Source of the DNA: Eledone cirrhosa
Lineage: Eukaryota
Length of the DNA stretch: 64,000 nt
Direction: 5' to 3'
Assembly: GCA_964016885.1 (NCBI GenBank)
Contig: OZ024766.1
Span: 13,516,001-13,580,000 of the forward strand
Positions 15,846 through 59,894 of the stretch are shown here, in pieces (positions within the stretch are counted from its first letter, which is position 1; the number at the start of each line of letters is the position of its first letter). The translations under genes and the position numbers were made by a program. Below the pieces are notes generated by a model. It saw only the letters and a program-made list of their open reading frames with translations. It searched no databases and had not been told where the DNA came from.

Positions 15846-15849
15846 AGAT

Positions 15850-16954
<1,105 letters not shown>

Positions 16955-28730: not shown

Positions 28731-28809
<79 letters not shown>

Positions 28810-33399: not shown

Positions 33400-35655
33400 G
33401 TAATGCTGCGTTATAATAGTTAGCATGCTATGTATAATAGTTAGCATGCTATGTATAATAGTTAGCATGCTATGTATAATAGTTAGCATGCTATGTTATA
33501 ATAGTTAGCATGCTATGTATAATAGTTAGCATGCTATGTAATGCTGCGTTATAATAGTTAGCATGCTATGTATAATAGTTAGCATGCTATGTTATAATAG
33601 TTAGCATGCTATGTATAATAGTTAGCATGCTATGTAATGCCGCGTTATAATAGTTAGCATGCTATGTATAATAGTTAGCATGCTATGTTATAATAGTTAG
33701 CATGCTATGTATAATAGTTAGCATGCTATGTTATAATAGTTAGCATGCTATGTATAATAGTTAGCATGCTATGTTATAATAGTTAGCATGCTATGTATAA
33801 TAGTTAGCATGCTATGTTATAATAGTTAGCATGCTATGTATAATAGTTAGCATGCTATGTTATAATAGTTAGCATGCTATGTATAATAGTTAGCATGCTA
33901 TGTAATGCTGCGTTATAATAGTTAGCATGCTATGTATAATAGTTAGCATGCTATGTAATGCTGCGTTATAATAGTTAGCATGCTATGTATAATAGTTAGC
34001 ATGCTATGTTATAATAGTTAGCATGCTATGTATAATAGTTAGCATGCTATGTATAATAGTTAGCATGCTATGTATAATAGTTAGCATGCTATGTAATGCC
34101 GCGTTATAATAGTTAGCATGCTATGTATAATAGTTAGCATGCTATGTATAATAGTTAGCATGCTATGTAATGCCGCGTTATAATAGTTAGCATGCTATGT
34201 ATAATAGTTAGCATGCTATGTTATAATAGTTAGCATGCTATGTATAATAGTTAGCATGCTATGTATAATAGTTAGCATGCTATGTATAATAGTTAGCATG
34301 CTATGTAATGCCGCGTTATAATAGTTAGCATGCTATGTATAATAGTTAGCATGCTATGTAATGCCGCGTTATAATAGTTAGCATGCTATGTATAATAGTT
34401 AGCATGCTATGTATAATAGTTAGCATGCTATGTAATGCCGCGTTATAATAGTTAGCATGCTATGTATAATAGTTAGCATGCTATGTATAATAGTTAGCAT
34501 GCTATGTAATGCCGCGTTATAATAGTTAGCATGCTATGTATAATAGTTAGCATGCTATGTTATAATAGTTAGCATGCTATGTATAATAGTTAGCATGCTA
34601 TGTATAATAGTTAGCATGCTATGTATAATAGTTAGCATGCTATGTTATAATAGTTAGCATGCTATGTAATGTCGCATTATAATAGTTAGCATGCTATGTA
34701 TAATAGTTAGCATGCTATGTATAATAGTTAGCATGCTATGTTATAATAGTTAGCATGCTATGTATAATAGTTAGCATGCTATGTTATAATAGTTAGCATG
34801 CTATGTATAATAGTTAGCATGCTATGTTATAATAGTTAGCATGCTATGTATAATAGTTAGCATGCTATGTTATAATAGTTAGCATGCTATGTATAATAGT
34901 TAGCATGCTATGTTATAATAGTTAGCATGCTATGTAATGCCGCGTTATAATAGTTAGCATGCTATGTATAATAGTTAGCATGCTATGTAATGCCGCGTTA
35001 TAATAGTTAGCATGCTATGTATAATAGTTAGCATGCTATGTTATAATAGTTAGCATGCTATGTATAATAGTTAGCATGCTATGTTATAATAGTTAGCATG
35101 CTATGTATAATAGTTAGCATGCTATGTATAATAGTTAGCATGCTATGTATAATAGTTAGCATGCTATGTTATAATAGTTAGCATGCTATGTAATGTCGCA
35201 TTATAATAGTTAGCATGCTATGTATAATAGTTAGCATGCTATGTATAATAGTTAGCATGCTATGTTATAATAGTTAGCATGCTATGTATAATAGTTAGCA
35301 TGCTATGTTATAATAGTTAGCATGCTATGTATAATAGTTAGCATGCTATGTTATAATAGTTAGCATGCTATGTATAATAGTTAGCATGCTATGTTATAAT
35401 AGTTAGCATGCTATGTATAATAGTTAGCATGCTATGTTATAATAGTTAGCATGCTATGTAATGCCGCGTTATAATAGTTAGCATGCTATGTATAATAGTT
35501 AGCATGCTATGTAATGCCGCGTTATAATAGTTAGCATGCTATGTATAATAGTTAGCATGCTATGTTATAATAGTTAGCATGCTATGTATAATAGTTAGCA
35601 TGCTATGTTATAATAGTTAGCATGCTATGTAATGCCGCGTTATAATAGTTAGCCT
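33400..35655. repeat. Mixed 21/22/32-bp minisatellite containing the palindrome TAGCATGCTA
   Basis: Units TATAATAGTTAGCATGCTATG(T) and TAATGCCGCGTTATAATAGTTAGCATGCTATG. Confidence 0.97.
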
Positions 35656-36981
35656 GCTCATTAAACATGTCTAGGTTTGAGGATAAGCGGGATATTCTAA
35701 GGGGTATACTACGTGCTACTGAATTCTTTATGTAGATTGTGTGCTGTAAATAACCCCATGACGTCAGTGATTTACGCTGAATCGTTCGATACCATTGTGA
35801 TATCGAAGCTGTTTATCCTATCTTTTCTTACCCAATAGCTATTTTCAAATTTTATGATAGTCCTTCTAGCAGCTATTATTATTTCAATTTCATCAGGGGT
35901 AAGATCGGAGTTATTTTGGGCAAATATAAGTGCTTTATCTAGGGTGGCTGGGGATATGGACGCGTAGTAATCGTTTATATCGAATTGTATAAAGATACAT
36001 GTTTCTCTATTTCTTATTTTACTGAACCATTATATCGCCTCGTTAGTGTTACCCCATAAATTGATTTCTAGTTTACCCTTTATTTGTGCAATTACCCTAT
36101 CTAGAATATTCTTGCTAATTTTACCTATATCTGACTTAGATGGGCATATTAATCTGATAGTAGGATTTGCTTCAAAATTATTTTTGTAATCCATAAGGTT
36201 AAATGTAGGGTTGCATGGGGTTAGAGGCTCGGTTCTATCGGATATTCCGAGTTTATTTACTATCCTGGTGAGTGTGGATTCATTTGTTTTTTTGTATTTT
36301 TTGTGTAGTTCACGCTGAATGAAATTATTATATGTGTTAAGGTCCATAGAATATACGTTTGATGTTTTGTCTGCCTTTACTATGATACCGTTGGTGTCTT
36401 TTAGGTTTTTTAGTAGTGTGTTGATGTCATTTGGTAACTTGTGGTGTGTTCTTTTTTTGAATTTAGTTCCACTTATCATATTCATAAGGTCCAGCTCGAA
36501 GGCATCGAGTGTGGGGTTGTTTGGAGGGTTTTTCCAGGATTTGAATCCGTAATTCTCCTTAGAAAATTCACTTGTGTTAATAGCTGGTCCTTTGTCGAAG
36601 TGGTAAGCCTTCCATCGGACCCTACGGATGAAATCATTAGTCCGTTGTATCATGCCTAGTGTATAGTCCCTATTTGTAGGTATAGGTATGTTTTTAAATG
36701 ACATTCCTATGCGGTGCTTTTCCATGTTGTTGCCGTGTGTTAATGATGTTGCTCAACCAGGTGGGAGCTATGTATACGGGATAACAAATTATTGTTATAG
36801 GTAGTCCAGTTAGGGTACTCCGAGTAGTGGATAGTATTAACGCATGGCTAAGTTTGACTCAACAAGACCTTTCCATAGTGATGCTGCGAGTACACGGTGA
36901 TTTCTATGTAGAATACACTTGGAGTAATAATAAATCAAGAAAGAAAAGTGACATGGTTTGCTATAAAATAAGGGCTTTATT

Positions 36982-39389: not shown

Positions 39390-42300
39390 GAATCACTAGA
39401 GTTGATTTGGCTTCGTTCCAGTTTCCATCTTGACGACGATCCTCTCTCCCTACCTCACACCCACCCCCTCACACCACCATAGCCTATTCGACCAATCAAA
39501 CCTCAGCATGCCATTTCTTTTGCTACTACTACCTAACTAACTCTCTCCTCCCCTGTCCCAGCCCAACACAGCCTGCCATTATCCCACCACCACTGTTCTT
39601 CTAGCCCTGAATTTTCCTACCGTTATGGATGGATGAGCTGAGAATAAATTTGAGCAACTCTGAATTAATAGATGAAATATGAATCTGCGAGCTACCAAGC
39701 ACCCATGTGAAGCGCCCATCCAGAGACCCTTCCCTACGAGTGTCGACAAATGCCCAAAACTCCGAGTTGGTACCATCAATGTAGGCTCAATGAAAGGAAG
39801 AGCAGGAGTAATCGTAGAAATGCTAGAGCGAAAGGAAATTGATGTATGCTGTGTGCAAGAGACTAGATGGAGAGGAGAGTCTGCTAGAGTCCTTGTAGGA
39901 AAAAGTCGGTGCTACAAATTTTTCTGAGTGGGAAATGACGATGGGATGGGTGGTGTAGGTATACCATTAGCTGACAAGTGGGTAGATAAAGTAATCTCAG
40001 TGTACAGGGTAAATGCAAGAATCATTAAACTCAGACTAGTCCTGAATAAAACAATTACCACAATAATATCAGCTTACGCACCCCAATCGGGGTTGCCAGA
40101 CGAACTTAAGGATAGGTTTTACGAGTCCCTAATGCACACTACTGCTCTAACAAACGACAATGACTTCCTAATCATCGCAAGAGATTTTAACGGACAGGTA
40201 GGTAAACACTGCGACGGCTTCAATAGAGTCCATGGAGGCCACGGGGTTGGCACAAGAAATGAGGAAGGATTCAGACTTCTAGAATTCTGCGACGCCAATG
40301 ACATGTCGATATGTAACACAAACTTCAAAAGACCCGACAACCACCTGATCACCTCTAGATCAGGGGAGCACTATAGTCAGATAGATTTTTTCCTCATCAG
40401 AGGACGTGACAGATGGACGGTCATAAACACAAAAGCCTTCCCTAGTGAGGTATGTACATCCCAACATAGCTTAGTTTTCAGCGACCTCACGGTCAGAACT
40501 AGATGAACCTGGAAACAGAGGCCAACCTGGAGAAGAAAGATCTGGAAGCTGAAAGACCCCTCAACCAGTAACAGATTTAAAGATATTTTACTCAACGCCT
40601 ACGACAGTAAAGAAGAACAGATAGAGACATTCAATGAGGAAGAGAACTGGGAGTTCCTAAAAAATAACTTACTAGAGGCGACGGATGAGGTCTGTGGCTG
40701 GAGTAAGACCTCAAGCAGGAGGAGAATGACTTGGTGGTGGAACAATAAGGTAGATGAGGCAGTTAAGGCCAAGAGACAGGCATGGAAAGAATGGAAGAAC
40801 GGGGGGAGCAGGGTAAATTACATAGAGAACAAGAGGGAAGCTAGGCGACAAGTATACTTAGCTAGGAGGGAAGCAGAGGATAGAAAATTCAAGCATGTTT
40901 TGCAACGTGAGGACCAGAAACAGGAGGTGTTCAAGATTGCGAGGCAGTGTGTCAGAGAGAATTGTGATGTCATTGGAGAGAAGTGTATCCGGAATGATAA
41001 AGGTGAGCTTGCCCTCACAAGTGCTGAGACGAAAGATGCATGGAAGAGTCATTATGATAGATTACTAAATGAGGAGAATGCATGGGAATAAGAGACCCTA
41101 CCCCAAGTAGACCCTATAGAGGGGCCAGCAGTACAAGTCAGCAGCAGCGTAGTAAGTAAGGCAATCAAAGATATGAAGATGGGAAAGGCAACCGGTCCAT
41201 CGGGTATAGCTGCTGAGATGCTGAAGGCATCTGGGTCTGTAGGTCACACTATAACCACACGTATTGTTAACCAGGTAATACTAGAAGGTATCATACCAAA
41301 AGATTGGTGCAGTAGCATCATTGTCAACTGCTACAAAGGTAAAGGTGATGCACTAGATAGAGGAAACTATAGAGGTATAAAGCTGATGGACCAGGTCATG
41401 AAAGTAACAGAAAGAGTTATAGCACAGTTGATTAGGGACCGGGTGAAACTAGATGAGATGCAATTTGGGTTTGTGCCAGGAAGAGGCACCACTGATGCCC
41501 TCATAAAGGCGATGCACTAGATAGAGGAAACTATAGAGGTATAAAGCTGATGGACCAGGTCATGAAAGTAACAGAAAGAGTTATAGCACAGTTGATTAGG
41601 GACCAGGTGAAACTAGACGAGATGCAATTTGGGTTTGTACCAGGAAGAGGCACCACTGATGCCCTCTTCCTTGTGAGGCAGTTACAGGAAAAAGTACCTA
41701 GCTAAAAGTAAGCCACTCTACCTGGCATTTGTCGACCTTGAGAAAGCCTTTGACAGAGTTCCACGTGCTGTAATCTGATGGGCTCTTAGAAAACTAGGAG
41801 TAGATGAATGGCTTGTGAAAGCGGTACAAGCCATGTATAGGGGAGCAGTCAGCAAAGTTAGGATTAGCAATGAGTATAGCGAGGAATTTAGCATACAGGT
41901 TGGGGTCCACCAGGGCTCTGTTCTTAGCCCCCTCCTGTTCATCATAGTCATGCAGGCAATAACGGAGGAGTTTAAGACCGGATGCCCATGGGAACTCCTG
42001 TATGCTGATGACCTCGCACTTATAGCTGAATCTATGGTAGAGCTAGAGAAGAAATTCGAAACTTTGAAGCAGGGACTAGAAAGAAAGGGTCTCAAAGTCA
42101 ACATGATAAAGACTCAGGTCCTTGTAAGTAGACGAGAAAACAGAACCCAGATCCCCTCAGGGAAATGGCCTTGCTCAGTATGTAGGAAAGGTGTAGGTAG
42201 GAACTCGATTCTCTGCCCCAAATGCAAACAATGGGTACACAAGAGATGTAGTGGGATCTCAGGAAGCTTAATTAAGAATGTAGGCTTCACATGCAGCAGC

Positions 42301-43274
42301 TGTGCTGGGACAGCACGCAGCAAAAAGCCACAGGAAACAAGTACCACCAATCTCTCGGAGGGCTCTGTAGAAAGAGTAGACAGCTTCTGCTACCTAGGTG
42401 ACCGAATTAGCAGCGGAGGTGGGTGTTCAGAAAGTACAATAACTAGGGTAAGAACGGGATGGAAGAAGCTTAGGGAACTACTACCACTGCTAGCTGCAAA
42501 AGGCTTTTCCCTCAAAATGAAAGGCAGACTGTATGATGTGTGTATCCGAACAGCAATGTTGCATGGTAGTGAGACCTGGGTGCTGAAGGTGGAAGACTTA
42601 CGTAGATTAGAGAGAAACGAAGCCTGCATGCTCCGATGGATGTGTAACAGTAATATACGTGAACGACAAAGCATAAATGAATTGAGAGAGAGACTGAGCA
42701 TAAGAGGAATCAAATGCTGTGTGCAGGAGAGGCAGTTGCGTTGGTATGGACATGTGATGCGTATGAAGGATGACAGCTGCATAAAAAGGTGCAGAGCACT
42801 AGAAGTCGATGGAAACCGCGGAGTGGGGAGACCCAAGATGACCTGGGATGAGGTGGTAAAAACCGACCTTACCCAATTCCACCTCTCAAAGGCAATGACA
42901 CACGACCGTGACCTCTGGCGTCTCGCAGTAATACAGAGTACCCGACCTCCCATGGGTACAAGCTGAAGCATATAGACAATATGCGCCCACACCCTCCCCC
43001 CGCAAGGTGGTCGTGGAGGTGCCACGGCAAAAAAGCACCCAGCCCACACTGTAAAGTGGACGTGTAGGCAACACGAAAAAGCACCCAGCACTCACTGTAA
43101 ATGAGGTTGGTGTTAGGAAGGGCATCCAGCTGTAGAAATCAAGCCACATCAGTTCCTGTATGAGCAAAGCATAGTCAGCCGACCAGACACTGCCCACAAC
43201 AGGACAACCCGTCTAACCCATGCTAGCGTGGAAGAACGGACGTAAAACGGTGATGATGATGATGATGATGATGA
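39390..43274 (+). mobile_element. Near-full-length decayed RTE LINE (second subfamily)
   Basis: LRVGTINVGSM, VQETRW, SAYAPQ, NYRGIKL, YADD, PHD-like CxxC, RWYGHV; stops and frameshifts; 164-bp internal duplication at 41340-41667; (GAT)n tail; 5' boundary approximate. Confidence 0.96.
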
Positions 43275-43721: not shown

Positions 43722-44360
43722 TGCTAGAGAAACACTGGCACACTTGGAAAATTAGAAGCACACGGGTACAGTGGGAACATCAGAGACACAGTGGGTACTC
43801 AAGAGGCACAATGGCTCACTGTGAACATCCAGAAGCACACTGGGATATTAGAGGCATACTGGCATACTGGGAACATTGGAGCACAGTGGGAACATCAGAG
43901 GCACACTGGAATATCAGTGGACACTAGGTACATAGGAGGTATACTGAGAACATCAGAGGCTCACTGGGCACATCAGAGACACACTGGGAATACAAGAGGC
44001 ACACTGGGAACATCAGAAGCACAGTAGGCACATCCGAGGCACACTAGGTATATCAGAGACACACTGGGAACACAAGAGGCATACTGGGAACATCAGAAGC
44101 ACAGTAGGTACATCAGAGGCACACTAGGTATATCAGAGACACACTGGGAACACAAGAGGCAGACTGGGAGCATCAGAGGCACAGTTGGCACATCAGAGAC
44201 ACACTGGGAACACAAGAGGCAGACTGGGAGCATCAGAGGCACAGTTGGCACATCAGAGGCACACTAGGTATATCAGAGGCACACTAGGTATATCAGAGAC
44301 ACACTGGGAACACAAGAGGCAGACTGGGAACATCAGAGGCACACATGGCACATCAGGAGG
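43722..44360. repeat. Degenerate 20-bp minisatellite
   Basis: GGCACACTGGGAACATCAGA-like units. Confidence 0.9.
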
Positions 44361-44408
44361 CACGCTGTTAATAAATGAACATTTACAGTTTAAAATAAGC
44401 ATACTAAC

Positions 44409-44546
44409 AAGCTTGGCAGTCATGACCAGTAAAACCAGGTAGACACTTGTTGTTTGGACAGTGTCCATTTTTAGGGTTACAGTTTGCACTGTCCTTGCAT
44501 TTACAGGGATTTGAACAATGGACACCAAAATAACCAGCTTTACACA
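44409..44546 (-). CDS. Multi-EGF gene exon 7 in window (138 nt, phase 1-1)
   Basis: TTAACAG|...|GTTAGT; VCKAGYFGVHCSNPCKCKDSANCNPKNGHCPNNKCLPGFTGHDCQA. Confidence 0.9.
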
Positions 44547-44667
44547 CTGTTAAAATAAAACAAACAAGTAGAAATATCTAACATTACTTTACAAATATAT
44601 ACAGGGTGCAGCATAAATACTGTTACAAAATATCAAATGAGTTTAAGTCATAATATTAATTACTTTA

Positions 44668-44848
44668 TGCTTTGCAGCATAGAGTTACGGCCCTTTATGA
44701 TCTGAGTTCAAATCCCGCCCAGATTAACTTTGCCTTTCATCCTTACTGGGTCGATAAAATAAAGTACCAGTCACACACAGGGAGCGCTTTAATAGACCCA
44801 CCCCCCCACATTTCTGGCCTTATGCTTATATAAGAAACCAATAATAAT
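44668..44848 (+). mobile_element. Nin/Deu-like SINE copy
   Basis: GAGTTCAAATCCCGCC...CCTTTCATCCTTACTGGGTCGATAAAATAAAGTACCAG. Confidence 0.82.
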
Positions 44849-44929
44849 TACTTTATTATTGATCTGATTGCTCAAATATTAACCTAATACTATATACTAA
44901 CTGTTTTGGGGGTTATATAAGGATTCATT

Positions 44930-45197
44930 GCACATTTTTTCATGTTCAGAGTTGCTGAAGCATGGAACAAATTACCTGCATCAGTTGTTAGCTACTGGGA
45001 CACTACATCCTTTAAAACCTCCATGCTTCCTGAAATTCGCCAACACTACACCTGATATCCCCCTTCCATACACACGCATGCATGTGTGTGTATTTCATGA
45101 CTCATACACTGTTCACTTTCCTGACCTTTATACATTATTCTATGTACTATATATGCACCTGAGCATTGTACACAATAATTTCATTATTATTATTATT
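44930..45197 (+). mobile_element. CR1 LINE 3' fragment
   Basis: Matches 49085-49490; (ATT)n tail. Confidence 0.85.
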
Positions 45198-45760
45198 TAA
45201 ATGTCCTTAGAATTGAAAGGAAAATTCATAATTGGACAGCATGAAAAAAAGTAGACTCCACCTCAGATTTTTATAACTGGAAAACAGCTTGAAATTAACA
45301 GAATGCTCATAAAAAGGACCATTGATCACTTCAAAGAAACTTCCTCAACAAAAGCCAAGATCAGGACGTCCTAGCACCTTCTGAACACCAAAACTAATCA
45401 AATACATGCATGAGAAAATCAGATGTAAGCCAAAAAGATTCATGAGAAAAATGGTGAAAGAGGCTGAAATTTCAGAGAGATCCATGAGGAGGCTATGTAA
45501 AGATGATCTCGAGATGTGAGAACAAAAGGAAAGCATATCAAATAAGATTTCATGGTGTTAATAGTTAATAAACATTTTATTAATTACTTTGTGCCACAAT
45601 TGTATCTAGGTACAATAAATATTGAATTTTATTTTGTAACAGTATTTATGTTGTACTATGTAGTATTATGTGGTCAGAAACTCTCAAGAAAGTTGGACAG
45701 GAGAAGGTCACCAGAGAAGAACCACCCTCTCACCTCATGCAAGGGTTTCAGCCATTAACC

Positions 45761-46053
45761 CAGGCATGGGCAACCTTTTTCGAGAAGCGGGCTGCATGAG
45801 ATATGGTTCATCATCAGGGAGGCCGCAAGCGCTAGTTTACATTTGTGCCCACATTAAAAAAAAAGGGTGATAACTCAGGTTGTTTTGATTTGTTTCTTCA
45901 GAATTCGTACACGTTGTTTTCCTTAATCGTTAAAAATTATAGAAAGATAAATTACGACTGAAAAGTTGGGGTAAAAAAATCAGAAAGATTTCACTTAGGT
46001 GATTTAGGTGAGTCATTTAGAAAGCTTCGTGGGCCGCAGGTTACCCATGACTG
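45761..46053. mobile_element. hAT-type MITE
   Basis: TIRs CAGGCATGGGCAACC / GGTTACCCATGACTG; imperfect 8-bp TSD CATTAACC / CCTTAATC. Confidence 0.75.
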
Positions 46054-46257
46054 CCTTAATCTATTTAACATTTACATTACTGTGTTTAAGTGTGTGTGAG
46101 TGAGTCCATTTGTGTGTTTTAATGTGAGTGTGTTTGTGTGTTTTAGTGTGTGAGTACATTTGAGCATTTAAGAGTGTGAAAGAGTATGTGTGTGAGTGTG
46201 TTTGTGTGTTTTAGAGTGTGAGTGCATGTGTGTGTTTATGTGTATGTGTGTGTGAAC

Positions 46258-47410
46258 TCTTTTATTCACCTCTTACAATAGGAAAGGACACTGTGCCAGT
46301 TATTTTGTGTCTCAACTAATTGCAACAAAGCTAATAAACTTTCATGCTCTATTTAACACTAACACAAGTGTAAATGGTGTTAAACTTACAATCATGTTCT
46401 GGGTTTCATTCTTGGACTGGGTTGTGTGTTATGTTCTTGAGCAAAACATTATACTCAGTATGTATGTATGGTCCTGTAACTCCTGACAGAGTCGTAGAGG
46501 TGCCGTATTAACAGACATCATTTCTTGGGTATTTTAAGCCAGGCGGAGCCCATCCCTGTCCAGGCCTGAATACAGCAGATTTCTTCCAGAGAAAGATAGA
46601 AAGTGAGAGAGAGGAAATGAGAAAGAGATATAGAAGAAGAATCGACCCCAGTACTAGACTGGTACTTTTTTATTGACATCAAAAGGATGAAAGGCAAAGT
46701 TGACCTCAGCGGGATTTGAACTCAGAGAGCAGAGAGTCGGAACGAATACCACAAAGCATTCTATCTGATGTTCTAACGACTCTGCCAATTCACTGCCTAT
46801 ATACTCAGTATACTCAGTTGGAAATGAGTATCAACAATTGCTGGGGGGTTTTCTCTGCAATGGACTGGTGTCCTGTCCAGGCTGGAATTGTTTACTGTCA
46901 GTCACTTAACACCATGGAAACCAAGGTAAACACTGGCCTGATTAGCATCCAGGCTTGAGACAGACTTTAGACTCAGAACAAGTAACAGCCAAATTATAGA
47001 TTAGTATGATAAAAAGGAAAGGACACATTAAATAGTGTAGTCCTAGTTATGCAATGCCTGAGAGAAGGGTGGAATGTGCTTATCTCGGTTTCCATGGTGT
47101 GAAGCAACTGAGAGTACAGAATTCCATCCTGCACAGGACAGGTGTCCTGTGCAGGATGGAATTTAAAATCCCCCAGCAATTGCTGGTACTCATTTTCAAC
47201 TGAGTATACTACGCAAGAATGTTTTGCTTAAGAACGCAATGCACATCCAAGTCCAGGAATCAAACCCACAACATTATGATTGTAAATCCAACAGCTTTAC
47301 CACTTGTGTTAGTGTTAGATAGAGATGACAGTTCATTGATCTCATAACTAGTTTAAACTGTAAACAACTGACACAGTGTCCTTACATATTATAAAGAGGT
47401 GAATAAAAGA
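46258..47410. repeat. Diverged inverted duplication containing CORE-like SINE copies; left arm carries a Nin-type SINE (46640-46797, minus)
   Basis: TCTTTTATTCACCTCTT...AACACTAACACAAGTG matches the reverse complement CACTTGTGTTAGTGTT...AAGAGGTGAATAAAAGA. Confidence 0.7.
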
Positions 47411-47529
47411 TATTGAAAAAGATACTGTCAATTCACCAGCTTTTATTTTAATTTACAAATCTGCCCCCCCCCCCTCACTCCCATAAAAAAAAAAGAAAGA
47501 ATGGAAATTCGATATTTAGTTTTACTCAC

Positions 47530-47550
47530 CATTTTGGCAGTTTCTTCCTT
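47530..47550 (-). pseudogene. 3' piece (21 nt) of EGF exon 6, separated by the CR1 insertion
   Basis: AAGGAAGAAACTGCCAAAATG|GTGAGT = (K)GRNCQN plus donor. Confidence 0.85.
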
Positions 47551-49493
47551 GTACTGCACTGAGCTACAGCGCCCAAACTGGCATGAGATGTATAACTCTG
47601 GAGATGTGAACTCTATACTCCAGAGCATCCTGGACTCAATATGGATAGCGTGTGCAGCATCAGTGCCACGGAAGCGGAAAAATAACCACCCCAAAAGTGC
47701 AATCTGGGAAACTTCAGCGGTCCGACTTGCCAGGAAAGAACGTCGGAATGCTGAACGGGAATATAAACTGCATAGATCAGATGCCAACAGAAAAAAGCGG
47801 AATAAATCTTCTAACCATCTCAAGCAAGTGACAAAGAAGGCAGTGCTTGAATTTGAACAGTGCATCGCAACCAATCCTGACAGTAAGGTGTTCTGGAAAT
47901 ATGTTCATTCAAAGCAGAGACCTCACTCTCCAGTTGGTCCTCTTCGCAATCCCCACACAAGCCAGATCACTGACGATCCCAAGGAATGCGCAGAACTCAT
48001 TGCTGAGTGCTATGAAGTATTTTTACTGTTGAAAACCAGAATGTACCATCTTCACCATCTCTAACATCAAATTCCATAACAACTATGGAATTTACACCTG
48101 CAATGTTGCGACGTCACCTTAAGAATAAGCGCAACTATGCCTCCCCTGGTCTTGATGGTGTGACATACCTGCTTCTCAAACGTGGCGAGGATTTCCTTTT
48201 GCGCCAGCTTTCTTTTTTCTTTCAATACTGTCTCAGCAATGGTGCTACTCCGGAGCAGTGGAAAACTGCCAGTGTCATTCCCCTGTTCAAAAAGGGCAAC
48301 CGCATGTCACCTGTCAACTATCGTCCAGTCAGTCTTACTAGCTGTATGGCCAAACTGATGGAATCCTGTGTCAGAGAAACACTTTGGAACTTCTGGAGCT
48401 CTCACAGCCTCATCCGGCCCTCACAGTTTGGATTTATCCCTAACTCCAGCTGCTGTGATCAGCTTATCGAGTTCCTTGAGGACATCACCCGGATCACTGA
48501 CAGCGGCTCATGGGTGGATGTTGTTTATCTTGACTTTGCAAAGGCTTTTAATTCTGTGCCACACAAAAGACTTATGGCAAAACTCTCTGCAATGGGTGTG
48601 AGGGATGATCTTTTCGACTGGCTGAAATCCTTCATTCTCAGCCGAAAGGAAGTAGTCACGGTTCTAGGACAGCATTCTTCACCATATGAGATGTCATCTG
48701 GTGTACCACAGGGATCTGTTCTTGGTCCTCTTTTGCCATCTATTTAAAACTGTATACAGCTATGGTGCGACCACACTTGGAATTCGCATCATCAGTCTGG
48801 AACCCCTATCTTGCTCGGAACATTGACCTCCTGGAAACTGTTCAGAGACGTGCAACCAAGCGCATACTCTCCATCAGACACCTACCATACTCTGAACGCC
48901 TTGCTTCCCTGGGCATGGATTCATTGAAGCTCCGACGTCTGGCAATGGACTTGGTGAATACCCACAAAGTTTTTAACCATCTCGCCAACTGCAACCCTGA
49001 GCGCCTCTTTGATCTCCATGTGTCTAACACACGTGGACATGCCTACAAGATAAGAAAACAGCACAGCTCCCATGACTTTCGCAGACATTTTTTCACGCTC
49101 AGAGTTGCTGAAGCATGGAACAAACTGCCTGCGTCAATTGTTAGCTGCCGAGACACTGCATCCTTTAAGACACTCATGCTTCCCGAAATACGCCAAAACT
49201 ACACCTGATGTGCCCCTTCCATACACATGCACACATGTGTGTATCATGACTCGTGCACTGTTCATTTTACTGATGTTTGTGCATTGCCCTATGTACTGTA
49301 CATGCACTTTTTTGATGGGTTGTGGGGCACCTGGGCACTGTGCACAATATTTCATTATTGTTATTGTTATTATATCATGACTCATACACTGTTTATTTTC
49401 CTGACATTTGTACATTATTCTATGTACTATACATGCACCTTTGATGAGTTGTAGTGCACCTGAGCACTGTACACAATAATTTCATTATTATTA
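47551..49493 (+). mobile_element. 5'-truncated CR1-clade LINE with an internal RT deletion and duplicated 3' end
   Basis: ASPGLDG, WKTASVIPLFKKG, NYRPVSLTS, YLDFAKAFNSVPH, GVPQGSVLGP, VRPHLEF, VQRRATK, TRGH, VAEAWNKLP; (ATT)n tail. Confidence 0.95.
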
Positions 49494-49610
49494 TAAAACC
49501 AGCAACACATCTTCCGTCAGAACATATTCCTGTCACTGAGTCACATTTGTTGCTGTCTACACAGTGACATATACCTTCACAGTTGCTGCCAAATCTACCA
49601 TTCTGGCAGA
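49494..49610 (-). pseudogene. 5' piece (117 nt) of EGF exon 6
   Basis: TTTGAAAG|TC TGC...; VCQNGRFGSNCEGICHCVDSNKCDSVTGICSDGRCVAGF, then LINE tail. Confidence 0.88.
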
Positions 49611-49897
49611 CTTTCAAAGAAACAAAAACATTGTTTGTTAATAAAAAAAAAAGCAAACCCTTTTTTTTTCAGAAACTTCTGGCGGAATCCCAAAGTCTCA
49701 TATTTTTATATGGTTTGAATATAAATATACTTCTCTACCTTTTTTTCATGGAACCCCAGACATTCCTTTGCAGAACCCTTGGGTTCCATGGATCCCACTT
49801 TGGGAATGACTAATAAAGAACAACCTAAAGTTTTGAGAGATAAAACAAGAATTCATATATGTTGCACAGAGTAATTAGCTTCTTTCATTTCACTCAC

Positions 49898-50035
49898 CTG
49901 TTTGACAGTTGTTACCTTTATAGCCAGGTGTACACCCACCACTCGAACAGGTACCAGATTTAGGGTTACACGTGCTATTGTCATAGCAGTGACAGCTATA
50001 GCTACAATCTTTACCAAACTTGCCACTGGAGCACT
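49898..50035 (-). CDS. Multi-EGF gene exon 5 (138 nt)
   Basis: TTTCAG|...|GTGAGT; ECSSGKFGKDCSYSCHCYDNSTCNPKSGTCSSGGCTPGYKGNNCQT. Confidence 0.92.
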
Positions 50036-50081
50036 CTGAAATATAGAGCTATTATTTATTATTTATTCATGAGTGAATAAG

Positions 50082-50272
50082 AATTGTTTCCACTTTTGAC
50101 ACAAGGCCAGCAATTACCCCAGTGCATTACTGGTACTTTATTTTATCGACCCCGTAAGGACGAAAGGCAAAGTTAACCTTGGCGGGATTTGAACTCAGAC
50201 CGTAAAGAACCATAACTCTATGCTGCAAAGCATGGCATCCGACGCTCTACCGATACTGCCAATCCACCACCC
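50082..50272 (-). mobile_element. Nin/Deu-like SINE copy
   Basis: Reverse complement of 38899-39088. Confidence 0.85.
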
Positions 50273-50680
50273 TCGCGATTCAATAATAATTATTTCTACT
50301 TTTTGCACAAGGCTAGCAATTATCCCAGTGTATTACTGGTACTTTATTAGTAATACACTGGATAACAATAATGTTATAATAGTATTATAATATCATTAAT
50401 ATTCAGTTTGTTTGCCAGCAAACAGCCTCATAAACACCACGTGTGTTTTCTAGATGAACAATGTCATCCTTTTGTTGTAAAAGGGAAAGAAATGGGAAGA
50501 ACTGTTGGAGTGTTTGTTGGATGAAATGCTTTGCAGAACTTCTGAGTTCTGAGTTCAAATCTTGCTCAGGTCAAACTTGAATGTCATTTTTACAAGCTTG
50601 ATAAAATAATGTACCAGTTAAATACTGGGGTAGATATAATCAACTGACTTTCTCTTTACTCCAAAATTAAGAAATCATTA

Positions 50681-50910
50681 TTAACCCTTTACCATTCACA
50701 TTACTCTATATATACTATTGTGTATTTTCATGGTAAAGGCTTTATCTCACATAATTATCTCACATAATATCGAATCTATGAGATTTTGAAAGTATTTATT
50801 TTGAGAACAATACCTTCACATCAGTTTGAGCGACCAGTTACAGCCAATATCAACAGAAAGAGGTAGAGAATTCTGGCCGGTTTGGGCCGGTTTGAACACG
50901 AAAGGGTTAA
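50681..50910 (+). mobile_element. Complete TTAA-ended (piggyBac-type) MITE
   Basis: TTAACCCTTT...AAAGGGTTAA termini; other copies at 43275 and 57352. Confidence 0.85.
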
Positions 50911-51639
50911 TTAAAAACATTGGTACATTTGTGCTTTACATAGGTTTGGCTTGGTTTTACTGGTTGGGTATTCCTCTTGTAACCAACCACTTTACTGAGG
51001 GGCCTGGGTGCACCAGTTCTTGAGAGGTTGTACTAATTAGGGTGGCACCAAGTGGATACAAAATGTGGGACGAAAAGAAGAGAGAGGAGTCAGTTGAAAA
51101 TGTCTGAGTGGAGGTGGCATAAACCTAGAATACTCCGAGGAACAGAGTCCAATATAGTAGTGGTGGAAAGCAGGAGGAGAAGGCACATGGGGAGAGTATC
51201 AGTGAAGAAGAGAAAAAATGGTGTATCCATTTGGTTTATAGTCAAGTTTTATTTTTTTTAAACAAGCACCTTTATAGGCTTAGTCGGCCTCCTATGAGGT
51301 TGTCACCCCATAGGAAGTATTCTGGGTGTTTCAATGGTAAGGACACCATGCCTATCATGTTGTTGTTACAGCTCACATTTATGTAGGTTTGGCTGGCCCC
51401 CTACAAGGATGCACTCCATAGGAAATATTCTGGGTGTTTTAATAATAAGGACCCCAGGCCTATCATGTTGTTACAGCTCTACCTATGTAGGTTTAACTGG
51501 CCTCTGACAAAAATGCACCCCAAAGGAGCCTCGGTCTTTTCATGTCACTCTTTCCTTGGTAAGTTTGGAATCTCACTTTGAAGTGCCATGTACTCACCTA
51601 GAAATACAAATAGCATAGAAGATCTACTGAATGACTCAC

Positions 51640-51777
51640 CTGTCTGACAATTGCTACCTTGATAGCCAGCTTCACAGCCACCACTGGAACATACACCTGT
51701 GATGGGGTCACACTTGCTGTTGTTGGCACAGTGACATAAGTTAATACAGTTGTCACCAAATTTACCACTTCTACACT
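51640..51777 (-). CDS. Multi-EGF gene exon 4 (138 nt)
   Basis: CCCAG|...|GTGAGT; ECRSGKFGDNCINLCHCANNSKCDPITGVCSSGGCEAGYQGSNCQT. Confidence 0.92.
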
Positions 51778-51819
51778 CTGGGTACATTAAATATGAAGAA
51801 TATAGAAGTTAGATGGAAT

Positions 51820-52715
51820 GAGATGTGAAATGTATGTGATATACAATGTATGAGTTGTGAAATGTATGGGATGTGAAATGTAAGGATGTGAAATGTAGTA
51901 GATATGAAATGTAAGAGATGTGAAATGTAAGAGATGTGAAATGTAAGAGATGTGAAATGTCGGAGATGTGAAATGTAAGGATGTGAAATGTAGGAGATGT
52001 GAAATGTAGGAGATGTGAAATGTAGTAGATGTGAAATGTAAGAGATGTGAAATGTAGGAGATGTGAAATGTAGGAGATGTGAAATGTAGTAGATGTGAAA
52101 TGTAAGAGATGTGAAATGTAGGAGATGTGAAATGTAAGGATGTGAAATGTAGCAGATGTGAAATGAAAGGATGTGAAATGTAAGAGATGTGAAATGTAGG
52201 AGATGTGAAATGTAAGAGATGTGAAATGTAGGAGATGTGAAATGTAGGATATGTGAACTGTAAGGATGTGAAATGTAAGATATGTGAAATGTAAGAGATG
52301 TGAAATGTAGGAGATGTGAAATGTAAGAGATGTGAAATGTAGGAGATGTGAAATGTAGGAGATGTGAAAGGTAAGAGATGTGAAATGTAGGAGATGTGAA
52401 ATGTAGGAGATGTGAAATGTAAGAGATGTGAAATGTAGGAGATGTGAAATGTAGGAGATGTGAAATGTAAGGATGTGAAATGTAAGAGATGTGAAATGTA
52501 GGTGATGTGAAATGTAGGAGATGTGAAATGTAGGAGATGTGAAATGTAAGAGATGTGAAATGTAGATGTGAAATGTAAGAGATGTGAAATGTAGGAGATG
52601 TGAAATGTAGATGTGAAATGTAAGGGATGTGAAATGTAGGAGATGTGAAATGTAGGAGATGTGAAATGTAAAGGTGTGGATTGTATAATGTGAAATATAG
52701 ATGTGAAATGTAGAG
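51820..52715. repeat. ~16-bp minisatellite
   Basis: GAGATGTGAAATGTA(A/G) units. Confidence 0.95.
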
Positions 52716-52776
52716 AATGTACAAAAATAACAGTAAACATCAATAACAACAACAGCAACCATCATCAACAACAATA

Positions 52777-53597
52777 GTGGTGGTGGTGGTAATGGAGGTG
52801 GTGGTGGTAGTGGTGGTGCTGTTAGTGGAGGTGGTGGTGGTAGTGGTGGTGGTGGTCGATGTGGTGGTGGCGGTGGTGGCAGTGGTGGTGGTAGTGGTAG
52901 TGGTGGTGGTGGTGGTAGTGGTGGTGGTGGTGGTGGTGGTAGTGGTAGTGGTGGTAGTGGTGGTGGTAGTGGTGGTGGTGGTGGTGGTGGTAGTGGTGGT
53001 GGTGGTGGTGGTAGTGGTAGTGGTGGTGGTAGTGGTGGTAGTGGTGGTGGTGGTGGTAGTGATGGTGGTGGTAGTGGTTGTAGTAATGGCAGTGGTGGTA
53101 GTGGAGGTGATGGTGATGGTGGTGGTGGTAGTGGTGGTGGTGGTAGTGGTTGTAGTAATGGCAGTGGTGGTAGTGGAGGTGGTCGTGATGGTGGTGGTGG
53201 TGGTGGTGGTAGTGGTGGTGGTAGTGGTGGTGGTAATGGCAGTGGTGGTAGTGGAGGTGATGGTGATGGTGGTGGTGGTAGTGGTGGTGGTGGTCGATGT
53301 GGTGGTGGCGGTAGTGATGGTGGTGGTAGTGGTTGTAGTAATGGCAGTGGTGGTAGTGGAGGTGGTGGTGATGGTGGTGGTGGTGGTGGTGGTAGTGGTG
53401 GTGGTAGTGGTGGTAGTGGTGGTGGTGGTGGAGGTGGTGGTAGTGGAGGTGGTGGTGGTGGTGGTGGTGGTGGTGGTGGTGGTAGTGGTGGTGGTGGTGG
53501 TAGTGGTGGTGGTAGTGGTGGTGGTAGTGGTGGTGGTGGTGGTGGTAGTGGTGGTAGTGGTGGTAGTAGTGGTGGTAGTGGTGGTAGTGGTGGTGGT

Positions 53598-53628
<31 letters not shown>

Positions 53629-54455
53629 GTGGTGGTGGTAGTGGTGGTGGTGGTAGTAGAGGTGGTGGTGGTGGAGGTGGTGGTAGTGGAGGTGGTGGTG
53701 GTGGCTGTGGTGGTAGTGGTGGTAGTGGTGGTGGTAGTGGTGGTGGTGGTGGTGGTAGTGGTGGTGGTGGTGGTGGTAGTGGTAGTGGTGGTAGTGGTGG
53801 TAGTAGTGGTGGTGGTGGTGGTGGTAGTGGTGGTGGTGGTGGTGGTAGTGGTAGTGGTGGTGGTGGTAGTGGTGGTAGTGGTGGTGGTGATGGTGGTGGT
53901 AGTGATGGTTGTGGTAGTGGTTGTAGTAATGGCAGTGGTGGTAGTGGTGGTGGTAATGGCAGTGGTGGTAGTGGAGGTGATGGTGATGGTGGTGGTGGTA
54001 GTGGTGGTGGTGGTCGATGTGGTGGCGGTAGTGATGGTGGTGGTAGTGGTTGTAGTAATGGCAGTGGTGGTAGTGGAGGTGGTGGTGATGGTGGTGGTGG
54101 TGGTGGTAGTGGTGGTAGTGGTGGAAGTGGTGGTGGTAGTGGTGGTAGTGGTGGTGGTGGTGGTGGTGGTGGTGGTGGTGGTAGTGGTGGTGGTAGTGGA
54201 GATGGGGGTGGTAGTGGTGGTGGTGGTAGTAGATGTGGTGGTGGTGGAGGTGGTGGTAGTGGAGGTGGTGGTGGTGGTGGTGGTGGTGGTAGTGGTAGTG
54301 GAGGTGGTGGTGGAGGTGGTAGTGGTTGTAGTAATGGCAGTGGTGGTAGTGGAGGTGGTGGTGATGGTGGTGGTGGTGGTGGTGGTGGTGGTAGTGGTGG
54401 TGGTAGTGGTGGTAGTGGTGGTGGTAGTGGTGGTGGTGGTGGTGGTGGTAGTGGT

Positions 54456-54486
<31 letters not shown>

Positions 54487-56280
54487 GTGGTGGTGGTAGT
54501 GGTGGTGGTGGTAGTAGAGGTGGTGGTGGTGAAGGTGGTGGTAGTGGAGGTGGTGGTGGTGGTGGTTGTGGTGGTAGTGGTGGTAGTGGTGGTGGTGGTG
54601 GTGGTAGTGGTAGTGGAGGTGGTGGTGGAGGTGGTGGTGGTGGTGGTGGTAGTGGTGGTGGAGGTGGTGGTGGCGGTAGTGGTGGTGGTAGTGGTAGTGG
54701 TGGAGGTGGTGGTGGTGATGGAGGTGGTGGTGGTGTTAGTGGTGGTAGTGGTCGTGGTGTTAGTGGTGGTAGTGGTGGTAGTGGTGGTAGTGGTGGTGGT
54801 GGTGGTGGTGGTAGTGGTGGTGGTGGTAGTGGTGGTGGTAGTGGTGGTAGTGGTGGTGGTGATGGTGGTGGTAGTGATGGTGGTTGTAGTGGTTGTAGTA
54901 ATGGCAGTGGTGGTAGTGGTGGTGGTAATGGCAGTGGTGGTAGTGGAGGTGATGGTGATGGTGGTGGTGGTAGTGGTGGTGGTGGTCGATGTGGTGGTGG
55001 TGGTGGTGGTGGTGGTAGTGGTTGTAGTAATGGCAGTGGTGGTAGTGGAGGTGGTGGTGATGGTGGTGGTGGTGGTGGTGGTGGTAGTGGTGGTGGTAGT
55101 GGTGGTAGTGGTGGTGGAGGTGCTGGTAGTGGAGGTGGTGGTGGTGGTGGTGGTGGTAGTGGTGGTGGTGGTGGAAGTGGTGGTGGTAGTGGTGGTAGTG
55201 GTGGTGGTAGTGGTGGAAGTGGTGGTGGTAGTGGTGGTGGTGGTGGTGCTGGTAGTGGTGGTGGTGGTGGTAGTGGAGGTGGGGGTGGTAGTGGTGGTGG
55301 TGGTAGTAGAGGTGGTGGTGGTGGAGGTGGTGGTAGTGGAGGTGGTGGTGGTGGTGGTAGTGGTAGTGGTAGTGGAGGTGGTGGTGGTGGTGGTGGAGGT
55401 GGTGGTAGTGGTGGTAGTGGTAGTGGTGGTGGTAGTGGTGGAGGTGGTGGTAGTGGTGGTGGTGATGGTGGTGGTAGTGGTGGTGGTAGTGGTGGTAGTG
55501 GTGGTAGTGGTGGTGGTGGTGGTGGTAGTGGTGGTGGTGGTAGTGGTGGTGATGGTGGTGGTAGTGATGGTGGTGGTAGTGGTTGTAGTAATGTCAGTGG
55601 TGGTAGTGGTGGTGGTAATGGCAGTCGTGGTAGTGGAGGTGATGGTGATGGTGGTGGTGGTAGTGGCAGTGGTGGTGGTGGTAGTGGTGGTGGTGGTAGT
55701 GGTGGTGGTAGTGGTGGTGGTAGTGTTGGTGGTGGTAGTGGTGGTGGTGGTGGTAGTGGCAGTGGTGGTAGTGGCGGTGGTAATGGCAGTGGTGGTGGTG
55801 GTGATGATGGTGATGGTGGTGGTGGTGGTAGTGGTGGTGGTAGTAGTGGTGTGGGGGTGGTAATGGCAGTGGTGGTAGTGGTGGTGGTGTTAGTGGCAGT
55901 GGTGGCTGGTGGTGGTGGTGGTGGTGGTGGTACAGGTTATGGTGGTGGTGGTGGTGGTGGTACAGGTTATGGTGGAGGTGGTGGTGGTGGTGATGGTGGT
56001 GGTTGGTAGTGGTGGTGGTAGTACAGGGTATGGTGGTGGTGGTGGTGGTGGTGATGGTGGTGGTTGGTGGTGGTAGTGGTTGGTAGTGGTGGTGGTAGTA
56101 CAGGGTATGGTGGTGGTGGTGGTGGTGGTGGTTGGTGGTGGTTGTGGGTGAGGTGGTGGTGGTTGCAGTGGGAGTTGTGGTGGTTGATAGTGATGTTGGG
56201 TAGTGGTTGCGGTTGTGGTTGTGGTAGTGGTGGTAGTAGTGATGATGATGATAATAACAATGATGATATTTATGATGATG
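52777..56280. repeat. (GGT/AGT)n triplet tract
   Basis: 3.5 kb of GTG/GTA; the poly-Val ORF is an artefact. Confidence 0.97.
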
Positions 56281-56296
56281 ATAGTACACCACTTAC

Positions 56297-56434
56297 CTGT
56301 CTGACAGTTGCCACCTTCATATCCAGGAGCACATCCTCCATTAGAGCAGCTACCAGTCTGTGGCTTACATTTACTCTTGTCAGCACAATGACACATGTTT
56401 CGACAGTTTGGTCCAAATTTTCCTCTCTTACATC
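56297..56434 (-). CDS. Multi-EGF gene exon 3 (138 nt)
   Basis: TTGTAG|...|GTAAGT; CKRGKFGPNCRNMCHCADKSKCKPQTGSCSNGGCAPGYEGGNCQT. Confidence 0.92.
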
Positions 56435-56795: not shown

Positions 56796-56992
56796 TATAA
56801 TAATAATAATAGTGAAATTATTGTGTACAGTGCTCAGGTGCACTATAACTCATCAAAGGTGCATGTAAAGCACATAGAATAATGAACAAATGTCAGGAAA
56901 ATGAACAGTGTATGAGTCATGATAAACATATGTACGTGTGTATGGAGGATGGATATCAGGTGTAGTATTGGCGAATTTCAGGAAGCTTGGAG
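56796..56992 (-). mobile_element. CR1 LINE 3' fragment
   Basis: Reverse complement of the CR1 3'UTR and (ATT)n tail. Confidence 0.82.
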
Positions 56993-57802: not shown

Positions 57803-58292
57803 CACACACGTGTCTGACAGGTGCTACCTTATAACCAGGACCACACCATCTACTGTAACACACGTGTCTGACAGGTGCTACCTTATAACCAGGACCACAC
57901 CATCTACTGTAACACACGTGTCTGACAGGTGCTACCTTATAACCAGGACCACACCATCTACTGTAACACACCTGTCTGACAGCTGCTACCTTATAACCAG
58001 GACCACACCATCTACTGTAACACACCTGTCTGACAGGTGCTACCTTATAACCAGGACCACACCATCTACTGTAACACACCTGTCTGATAGATGATACCTT
58101 ATAACCAGGACCACACCATCTACTGTAACACACCTGTCTGACAGCTGCTACCTTATAACCAGGACCACACCATCTACTGTAACACACCTGTCTGATAGAT
58201 GATACCTTATAACCAGGAACACACCTTCCACTGGAACACACACCTGTCTCTGTCTTACACCTGTCTCTGTGTTACACCTACTATCATCTTGA
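57803..58292 (-). repeat. 54-bp minisatellite (x8) derived from the 3' half of an EGF exon, plus a half-exon relic
   Basis: Minus-strand unit TGTTACAGTAGATGGTGTGGTCCTGGTTATAAGGTAGCACCTGTCAGACAGGTG resembles TGTTCTAGTGGAGGATGT...GGTTATGAAGGTAGCAACTGTCAGACAG. Confidence 0.88.
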
Positions 58293-58323: not shown

Positions 58324-58461
58324 GTGGCTGACAGTTGCTACCTTCATAACCAGCAGTACATCCTCCTCTAGAACACACACCTGTCTGTTTGTTACATTTA
58401 CTGTTGTCAGCACAGTAACATGTGTTGCCACAGTTGGCTCCAAATTTTCCATTTCTACAGA
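58324..58461 (-). CDS. Multi-EGF gene exon 2 (138 nt)
   Basis: CCACAG|...|GTAAGC; VCRNGKFGANCGNTCYCADNSKCNKQTGVCSRGGCTAGYEGSNCQP. Confidence 0.92.
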
Positions 58462-58636: not shown

Positions 58637-58724
58637 ATAGCTACCACAATTCTATCATCTATATTATAGCGTTGTCATCTATACTATATCTATATCATCT
58701 GTACTATATTTGTATCATCTTAAT

Positions 58725-59075
58725 TTCCATGTTTCTAACACCCATGGATATGCCTACAAAGTCAGAAAACAGCACAGCTCCCATGACTTTCGGAAACATT
58801 TTTTCAAGCTCAGAGTTGCTGAAGCATGGAACAAACTACCTGCATCAGTTGTTAGCTGTCGAGACACTACATCCTTTAAAACCTCTATGCTTCCTGAGAT
58901 TCGTCAACACTGCACCTGATGTCCCCCCTTCCATACACACGTACACATGTATTTCATGACTCTAACACTGTTCCTTTTCCTGACATTTAAACATTATTCT
59001 ATGTACTATACATGCACCTTTGATGAGTTGTAGTGCACCTGAGCACTGTACACAATAATTTCATTATTATATTAT
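58725..59075 (+). mobile_element. CR1 LINE 3' fragment
   Basis: HVSNTHGYAYKVRKQHSSHDFRKHFF...WNKLP; (ATT)n tail. Confidence 0.88.
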
Positions 59076-59249
59076 TTTATACTCCAGTGGTATGACCTAA
59101 ACTATATATAATCCATACTATATTATACAATCTATATGATTTCTGTAACATCGATATTATGTCTATATACTTGCCGATTCTCTACACTCCATACTAATGT
59201 TATACTATATATTCATGAGGCTATGATATCCCCTTTATATTGTATGCAC

Positions 59250-59606: not shown

Positions 59607-59715
59607 CTGTCTCACAGGTGTTACCTTCATAACCAGCACTACACCCTCCACTAAAACACACACCTGTCTCTGTGTTACACCTAGCTGTGTGTTACACCTA
59701 CTGTCATCTTGACTC
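59607..59715 (-). pseudogene. Half-EGF pseudo-exon
   Basis: QDDSRCNT...CNTETGVCFSGGCSAGYEGNTCET|GTAGAT with an internal frameshifting duplication. Confidence 0.7.
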
Positions 59716-59756: not shown

Positions 59757-59894
59757 CTGTCTGACAGTTGCTACCTTCAGAACCAGCAGTACATCCTCCA
59801 CTAGAACACACACCTGTCTGTTTGTTACACCTGTTATTATCAGCACAGTGGCATGTGTGTTTACAGTTAGCTCCAAATTTACCAATGTCACAGG
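59757..59894 (-). CDS. Multi-EGF (MEGF10/11-like) gene exon 1 in window (138 nt); gene continues beyond the right edge
   Basis: TTACAG|...|GTAAGT; CDIGKFGANCKHTCHCADNNRCNKQTGVCSSGGCTAGSEGSNCQT. Confidence 0.92.

What the first reader, a model, noticed from the sequence alone, without database searches (positions are those of the whole stretch)
47530..49610. CR1 LINE inserted antisense into the middle of an EGF coding exon
Seen: 117 nt (49494-49610) plus 21 nt (47530-47550) make exactly 138 nt and rejoin as ...CVAGF-KGRNCQN|GT. Both splice sites are intact and there is no clear TSD around the 1943-bp insert. Inference: a recent, possibly polymorphic insertion. Skipping this symmetric exon would rescue the frame, while reading into the LINE gives a stop at 49420 and a truncated, possibly secreted isoform.
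Basis: partly seen in the sequence, partly recalled or inferred. Interest (0 to 1): 0.7.

Follow-up and report, generated by a model that had tools for sequence, protein, structure and literature searches.

The report
Young retrotransposon splits an EGF exon
A young, broken CR1-type retrotransposon copy sits inside one EGF-repeat exon of a likely mollusc cell-surface receptor gene, while sequencing runs of close relatives carry the intact exon; the insertion would most likely cause in-frame skipping of that one repeat, a known kind of mutation.

Summary
Real, with one correction. A 5'-truncated CR1-type LINE lies antisense inside the sixth of seven 138-nt, phase-1 EGF-like exons. The empty allele was found in 3 of 4 laid runs (two organism labels, two studies). 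It has one extra base at the site, so the intact exon reads ...CVAGF-E-GRNCQN, not K. The insert is 1944 bp (47551-49494), with a 1-bp target-site loss, no duplication and a likely 3-nt 5' microhomology. The element is young (2 differences in 487 nt to two listed copies) but dead: no endonuclease, a frameshift near 48014, about 400 nt deleted including YADD, and a doubled 3' end. One run behaves like spliced RNA and holds the intact exon. No run showed the filled allele, so its effect is inferred: in-frame skipping (about 0.5), or a stop at 49422-49420 with truncation or decay (about 0.25). Repeat relatives include molluscan MEGF/galactose-binding receptor phosphatases, whose annotated isoforms differ by single repeats; this gene's membership is unproven. 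Exonic LINE insertion with skipping is well known (NF1). New instance, modest interest.

The parts
49495..49610 (-). 5' part (116 nt) of the interrupted EGF-like exon, acceptor intact
   Evidence: joint lands on 49495
47530..47550 (-). 3' part (21 nt) of the interrupted exon, donor GTGAGT at 47529
   Evidence: the X5 contig has exactly 21 letters on this side of the joint, against 47 (X1) and 51 (X4)
47551..49494 (+). CR1-type LINE insert, 1944 bp, antisense to the gene, replacing one host base
   Evidence: tables 5 and 5c
47548..47550 (+). likely 3-nt microhomology between host and LINE at the 5' junction
   Evidence: table 8: X5 record 21 matches 47548-47734 with 0 differences and runs on for 105 letters unlike the host (one record; inferred)
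47552..48013 (+). ORF2 linker between endonuclease and RT; element starts here (5' truncated, endonuclease absent); frameshift near 48014
   Evidence: P0002 aa 295-448, 57%; P0001 80%; table 4 (other copies have one more base behind 48014)
48019..48735 (+). N-terminal part of reverse transcriptase, ending before YADD
   Evidence: RVT_1, E 3.8e-21; P0002 aa 451-689, 70%
48738..49208 (+). ORF2 C-terminal part and stop; about 133 codons (P0002 aa 690-822, with YADD at 709) are missing before it
49240..49370 (+). first 3' end unit with a worn tail; 78-81% identical to the second unit and to two other copies in the window
49371..49494 (+). second 3' end unit with clean (ATT)n tail; 92-93% identical to copies at 58.9 kb and 56.9 kb
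49420..49422 (-). first in-frame stop on reading from the exon into the LINE
49392..49397 (-). only AATAAA on the gene's strand within the insert, 23 nt after the stop (chance level 0.42 in shuffles)
49898..50035 (-). upstream EGF-like exon, 138 nt
44409..44546 (-). downstream EGF-like exon, 138 nt (weak donor GTTAGT)
51640..51777 (-). EGF-like exon, 138 nt
56297..56434 (-). EGF-like exon, 138 nt
58324..58461 (-). EGF-like exon, 138 nt
59757..59894 (-). EGF-like exon, 138 nt

Best explanation
A young, 5'-truncated and internally deleted CR1-type LINE copy sits antisense in one of at least seven symmetric EGF-like exons, on a haplotype that other sampled animals lack, and the 2.08-kb swollen exon would most likely be skipped, giving an in-frame protein one EGF repeat shorter. 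Steps: (1) shown: insert anatomy and empty allele. (2) Inferred from junctions: target-primed reverse transcription from a nick after GGTTTT on the gene's strand, primed on the (ATT)n tail; 5' joining by a 3-nt microhomology with loss of one host base (short target-site truncation). (3) Inferred: the copy cannot encode its own RT, so it was either mobilised in trans or damaged during or after insertion; the second, cleaner 3' end likely supplied the priming end. (4) Inferred: loss of exon definition, splicing 49898 to 44546, frame kept because 138 is a multiple of 3 and all exons are phase 1-1. (5) Inferred: near-neutral effect, since repeat number varies in related proteins.
For:: joint 47550-49495 in X1 (depth 626.7; single-copy pieces 557-658), X4 (3.8; single-copy 2.8-4.9) and X5 (112.2), 3 of 4 laid runs. 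X5 has depth 119-121 on exons and 3.8-7.3 on listed intron pieces, and leaves the reference exactly at the donor (side 21), so it is likely spliced RNA with the intact exon. Youth: X5 record 21 has 0 differences in 187 nt, X4 record 12 has 2 in 300, similar to host divergence of 9/1918 (X1) and 8/1759 (X4). Short target-site truncation and 5' microhomology are known LINE outcomes (PMC4245944, PMC2666801, passages). Exon skipping was the main effect in 6 of 13 exonic Alu/L1/poly(T) insertions in NF1, including a 5'-truncated L1 (PMC3219598, passages). No cryptic donor before the stop scores near the real ones (best 2.7 against 5.8 for the real donor and 8-9 for four sister donors; rough matrix). 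Annotated isoforms of related Sepia and Dreissena proteins differ by 41-50 aa repeat units.
Against: No read or contig of the filled allele was displayed; tables were cut, and contigs cannot show absence. The skip junction was not displayed. X4, the only run from a second study, rests on one contig of depth 3.8; X1 may be the source sample and X5 is from the same study. X6 showed no joint (more distant; the tool left some joints uncounted). X5 is not on record as RNA. The NF1 figures are human; 7 of 13 cases were not simple skipping. Two real donors in this gene score as low as the cryptic ones (2.45 and -1.69), so the matrix is a weak guide.
Confidence: 0.5

Rival explanations
1. The acceptor is still used; translation runs 24 codons into the antisense LINE and stops at 49422-49420. 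The message is either cut at the AATAAA at 49397 (short product ending in a broken EGF repeat, secreted if the gene has a signal peptide) or spliced further on and destroyed by nonsense-mediated decay (null allele).
For: Stop and AATAAA lie 23 nt apart, and the real donor is now 1.9 kb away. The acceptor is as pyrimidine-rich as any of the seven (0.76). A good cryptic donor exists at 48169, after the stop (score 6.1). In NF1 2 of 13 cases kept element sequence in the mRNA (PMC3219598).
Against: An AATAAA turns up in 42% of shuffles of the first 200 nt, and two of three introns counted hold 6 each. No signal peptide or membrane exon was found in the window.
Confidence: 0.25
2. Cryptic sites keep a piece of the exon in frame: a donor at 49575 (36-nt exon) or an acceptor at 47553 (24-nt microexon using the real donor), giving a protein with a broken repeat and unpaired cysteines.
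For: Both are in frame and open; cryptic-site use made up 4 of 13 NF1 cases, and one more case showed it together with skipping (PMC3219598).
Against: Donor score 2.7; acceptor pyrimidine fraction 0.47, below all seven real ones (0.59-0.76).
Confidence: 0.13
3. The filled allele is an assembly error, or a somatic or private event in the one sequenced animal, with no population meaning.
For: Only the window shows it; none of 4 laid runs displayed a filled junction. All four runs differ from the window at 44468, so the window has private letters or errors.
Against: Junctions look like true retrotransposition: tail at one end, truncation with microhomology at the other, 1-bp loss; misassembly rarely makes these (inference).
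Confidence: 0.1

Closest known systems
Exonic L1/Alu insertions in human NF1 (PMC3219598, passages read)
   Same: 5'-truncated LINE inside a coding exon with both splice sites intact; expected loss of exon definition and skipping
   Different: CR1-type rather than L1; 1-bp truncation rather than 10-17 bp duplication; symmetric repeat exon, so skipping would keep the frame; no RNA data from a carrier here
CR1/L2-clade LINE integration (ZfL2-1, ZfL2-2; PMC4245944, PMC2666801, passages read)
   Same: short target-site alteration, 5' truncation with microhomology, simple-repeat tail
   Different: the usual CR1/L2 peak is a 3-5 bp duplication; here a 1-bp loss, plus a 400-nt RT deletion and a doubled 3' end
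Active and polymorphic octopus LINEs (PMC9115989 passages; PMC13282606 parts 1-2 of 3)
   Same: recent LINE activity; 13 recently active CR1 families with 787 insertions in O. vulgaris; RTE presence/absence differences between individuals of O. bimaculoides
   Different: PMC9115989 has no occurrence of 'CR1' or 'coding exon' in its main text; the window's species is not established, octopus is my inference
Molluscan MEGF/galactose-binding receptor tyrosine phosphatases (Biomphalaria SudRes1, PMC12297450 passages; P0143/P0271 O. vulgaris, P0140 O. sinensis, P0169 Sepia, P0122 chiton)
   Same: same 8-cysteine, 45-46 aa repeat; best matches to the split exon are P0140 (63% over 38 aa) and P0143 (58%); EGF-domain loss between alleles is reported in the snail family
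   Different: no one-to-one orthologue found; no galactose-binding, membrane or phosphatase exon in the window; the repeat also occurs in unrelated Branchiostoma architectures that score higher for four of the other six exons

Membership tests
CR1-clade non-LTR retrotransposon | ORF2 with APE-type endonuclease followed by RT | tested here: met
   RT in the insert. The endonuclease is truncated away here but present in the closest full-length relatives: P0002 (70%) has Exo_endo_phos + RVT_1, P0001 (83%) is listed with the same.
CR1-clade non-LTR retrotransposon | ORF2 C-terminus without RNase H or CCHC finger; short 3' UTR ending in a simple-repeat tail, not poly(A) | tested here: met
   No Pfam hit and no CCHC pattern in the last 156 aa; (ATT)n tail. 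That these mark CR1/L2 is recalled.
CR1-clade non-LTR retrotransposon | RT groups with labelled CR1 and apart from L2/Jockey in a tree | not testable with these tools
   No clade-labelled references were available. RTE is excluded (22% identity to the window's RTE). The CR1 call rests on recalled motifs (YRPVSLTS, VRPHLE, TRGH..K, W..LP); L2 is not formally excluded.
CR1-clade non-LTR retrotransposon | short target-site duplication (3-5 bp peak) | tested here: not met
   1-bp loss instead. Short truncations are a minority outcome of such elements (6 of 30 ZfL2-1 inserts in HeLa, PMC4245944), so this is a tendency, not a strict criterion.
Autonomous, active LINE copy | intact ORF2 with YADD | tested here: not met
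   5' truncation, frameshift near 48014, 133-codon deletion covering YADD.
Molluscan MEGF/GBD receptor tyrosine phosphatase | tandem MEGF-type repeats | tested here: met
   Seven 8-Cys repeats; weak EGF_STAB1-2 hits in 7 of 7, below the curated cut-off; Atlas leads to laminin-EGF/PEAR1-like clusters; relatives.
Molluscan MEGF/GBD receptor tyrosine phosphatase | galactose-binding domain, one membrane helix, PTP domains | tested here: inconclusive
   tblastn of 151 relatives found no such exon in the 64 kb; the gene may extend beyond the window and no genome is held.
Polymorphic insertion | filled and empty alleles both present in one species | tested here: inconclusive
   Empty allele in 3 of 4 runs; filled allele only in the window, whose species label is unknown and which is equally close to organisms A and B.

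The most novel reading that the evidence does not exclude
A segregating LINE insertion acts as a one-step, frame-preserving deletion of an EGF module in a fast-changing molluscan recognition receptor, adding to repeat-number diversity of the kind linked to parasite resistance in snails; and the inserted copy is an RT-dead CR1 derivative that spreads in trans by carrying a second, borrowed 3' end.
Probability: 0.12. Interest if true: 0.6.

Novelty: new member of a known kind. Interest (0 to 1): 0.32.

Why it matters
It is a clean natural test of exon definition in a likely cephalopod: both alleles are defined to the base and the intact exon appears to be spliced in, so one RT-PCR on a carrier would tell skipping from truncation. 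It also points to recent exon-disrupting CR1 activity; my searches for such a case in cephalopods returned nothing relevant (1 unrelated paper listed; 0 papers), within a library that lacks most subscription journals. The general phenomenon is well documented in mammals, and one repeat out of many may have little effect.

Tried and rejected
No genome is held, so copy number and the rest of the gene could not be read. Two word-based protein searches with single exons found nothing. No RNA holder listed; 4 of 23 listed runs were laid. The 49898-44546 and other splice joints were not among 15 of 6,580 joints shown: no evidence either way. Summed depths over the LINE rise from 5' to 3' but are not copy numbers, so I do not use them. 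Equal depth of joint and flanks in X1 does not prove homozygosity, since contigs collapse alleles. No further exons found by profile, splice-site scan or tblastn. Folding of the three 3' units gave z-scores -0.8, -0.4, +0.55: no structure claim. No Rfam hit in 44000-52000. AATAAA is not above chance. Earlier findings: three look-ups, all empty. Paper search returned 0. KGRNCQN rejected. RTE clade rejected. The donor matrix used approximate recalled frequencies. No supplements were opened; the O. vulgaris repeat library (Zenodo) and the insertion table of PMC9115989 could bear on family identity and novelty.

Full report
Observation. The minus strand carries seven EGF-like exons between 59894 and 44409. 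Six are intact, 138 nt, phase 1-1, with eight invariant cysteines across the set. The sixth in order is split: 49610-49494 (117 nt) and 47550-47530 (21 nt), with intact acceptor and donor; read-through ends at a stop at 49422-49420.

The insert. It encodes an RT piece on the plus strand (RVT_1, E 3.8e-21). Against the closest full-length relative P0002 (979 aa, endonuclease plus RT) it maps to aa 295-448, 451-689 and 823-978. So it is 5'-truncated past the endonuclease, frameshifted near 48014, and lacks about 133 codons including YADD (aa 709). The 3' end is doubled: a first unit with a worn tail, then a 124-nt second unit with a clean (ATT)n tail. The units are 81% alike; the second is 92-93% like two other copies in the window, the first only 78-80%. 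Either the source copy was already compound, or the RT switched templates; the data do not separate these. A few contigs in X1, X5 and X6 skip the first unit. The CR1 label rests on domain order, tail and recalled motifs; RTE is excluded at 22% identity; L2 could not be excluded by a tree.

Empty allele. No genome is held, so I searched runs (23 listed, none on record as RNA) and laid four on 44380-51800. Three of four show a contig joining 47550 to 49495 with one letter between: X1 (organism A, depth 626.7, like its single-copy pieces), X4 (organism B, second study, depth 3.8, like its single-copy pieces but low) and X5 (organism A, another sample of the same study as X1, depth 112.2). X6, more distant, shows none, but the tool left some of its joints uncounted. 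The letter is G on the coding strand: 116+1+21 = 138 nt, codon GAA, as in three sister exons. The intact exon therefore ends EGRNCQN. The insert is 1944 bp and one host base is lost; there is no duplication. One X5 record matches 47548-47734 perfectly and runs on into unrelated sequence, which I read as a longer copy of the element sharing three bases with the host at the 5' junction. Short truncations and 5' microhomology are known outcomes of LINE integration (PMC4245944, PMC2666801; passages).

Age and distribution. Two listed pieces differ from the insert at 0 of 187 and 2 of 300 letters, about the same as host single-copy divergence from X1 (9 of 1918) and X4 (8 of 1759). With the rate quoted for O. 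bimaculoides (0.0036 per million years, PMC13282606 methods) this is roughly a million years or less; rough, and the species is a guess. No displayed record holds a filled junction, but tables were cut and contigs cannot show absence. X1 could be the assembled animal with alleles collapsed, or another animal. Either way filled and empty haplotypes are about 0.5% apart; polymorphism within one population is likely, not shown.

Expression. X5 is not labelled RNA, but its depth is 119-121 on three exons and 3.8-7.3 on listed intron pieces, and its joint contig has exactly 21 letters on the short side, the length of the exon tail, where DNA runs have 47 and 51. I infer spliced RNA in which the intact exon and its donor are used. 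Contigs do not measure inclusion level.

Host gene. A profile of the exons hit 2,974 proteins at E up to 0.001. None is a one-to-one orthologue; best identities per exon are 49-70%. The split exon is closest to O. sinensis 'draper' P0140 (63%), and among its top five matches is O. vulgaris P0143, a galactose-binding/EGF/membrane/PTP receptor. Branchiostoma proteins of other architectures give the top match for four of the other six exons, so the repeat alone does not fix the family. No other exon type was found in the window. In the snail Biomphalaria sudanica this receptor family lies in a schistosome-resistance region and alleles differ by EGF-domain loss (PMC12297450, passages). Annotated isoforms of Sepia and Dreissena relatives differ by 41-50 aa units in four of the six pairs aligned, so losing one repeat in frame looks tolerable (annotation, not experiment). 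In the same direction, X1, X4 and X5 carry Cys16-to-Arg in the 51777 exon, where the window and X6 have Cys.

Mechanism of the filled allele (inferred). The exon grows from 138 to 2081 nt. In NF1, 6 of 13 exonic insertions caused skipping, 4 cryptic-site use, 1 both, and 2 kept element sequence (PMC3219598, passages). Here skipping keeps the frame (about 0.5). Inclusion leads to the stop and then to decay or to cleavage at an AATAAA 23 nt later, a motif at chance level (about 0.25). In-frame cryptic options at 49575 and 47553 are weak (about 0.13). Artefact or private event about 0.1.

Verdict. It is a new instance of a known kind of mutation. Searches for a cephalopod precedent found none (PMC9115989 lacks 'CR1' and 'coding exon'), within a limited library. 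Its value is as a ready test case; the functional consequence remains unobserved. Interest 0.32.

Noticed in passing
window 51730 (exon 51777-51640, minus): Runs X1, X4 and X5 have a Cys16-to-Arg change at an otherwise invariant cysteine; the window and X6 have Cys. Suggests weak constraint on single repeats.
   Followed up: partly
window 44468 (exon 44546-44409, minus): The window has Asn where all four runs have Thr: a private change or an assembly error.
   Followed up: partly
window 44409-44412: The last exon's donor is weak (GTTAGT) and reading on gives ...CQAC-stop; X5 cover ends at about 44412, so the 3' boundary and the next exon are unconfirmed.
   Followed up: no
window 15846-16954 minus: A C2H2 zinc-finger ORF runs in frame into a CR1-type RT fragment containing YADD (16033-15935, 67% to P0002 aa 692-724): possibly a second LINE insertion into coding sequence.
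   Followed up: partly
window 57803-58279 and 59607-59691: Pieces of the EGF exon's 3' half are duplicated just inside the following introns: one half-exon copy with its own GT, and a 54-bp unit repeated 8.1 times. The two introns begin alike, suggesting tandem exon duplication.
   Followed up: partly
window 44924-45197, 56797-56989, 58720-59081: Three more short 3' pieces of the same LINE group in introns of this gene.
   Followed up: partly
window 20021-22530, 25896-28766, 39928-42966, 36030-36752: Degraded RTE-like LINE copies and a Penelope-like piece (labels recalled).
   Followed up: no
window 1-8350, 33400-35700, 52700-56300, 60200-63600; N run 8356-8555: Long satellites (33-bp, about 20-bp, ACC-rich and about 42-bp units) and a 200-N scaffold gap.
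   Followed up: no
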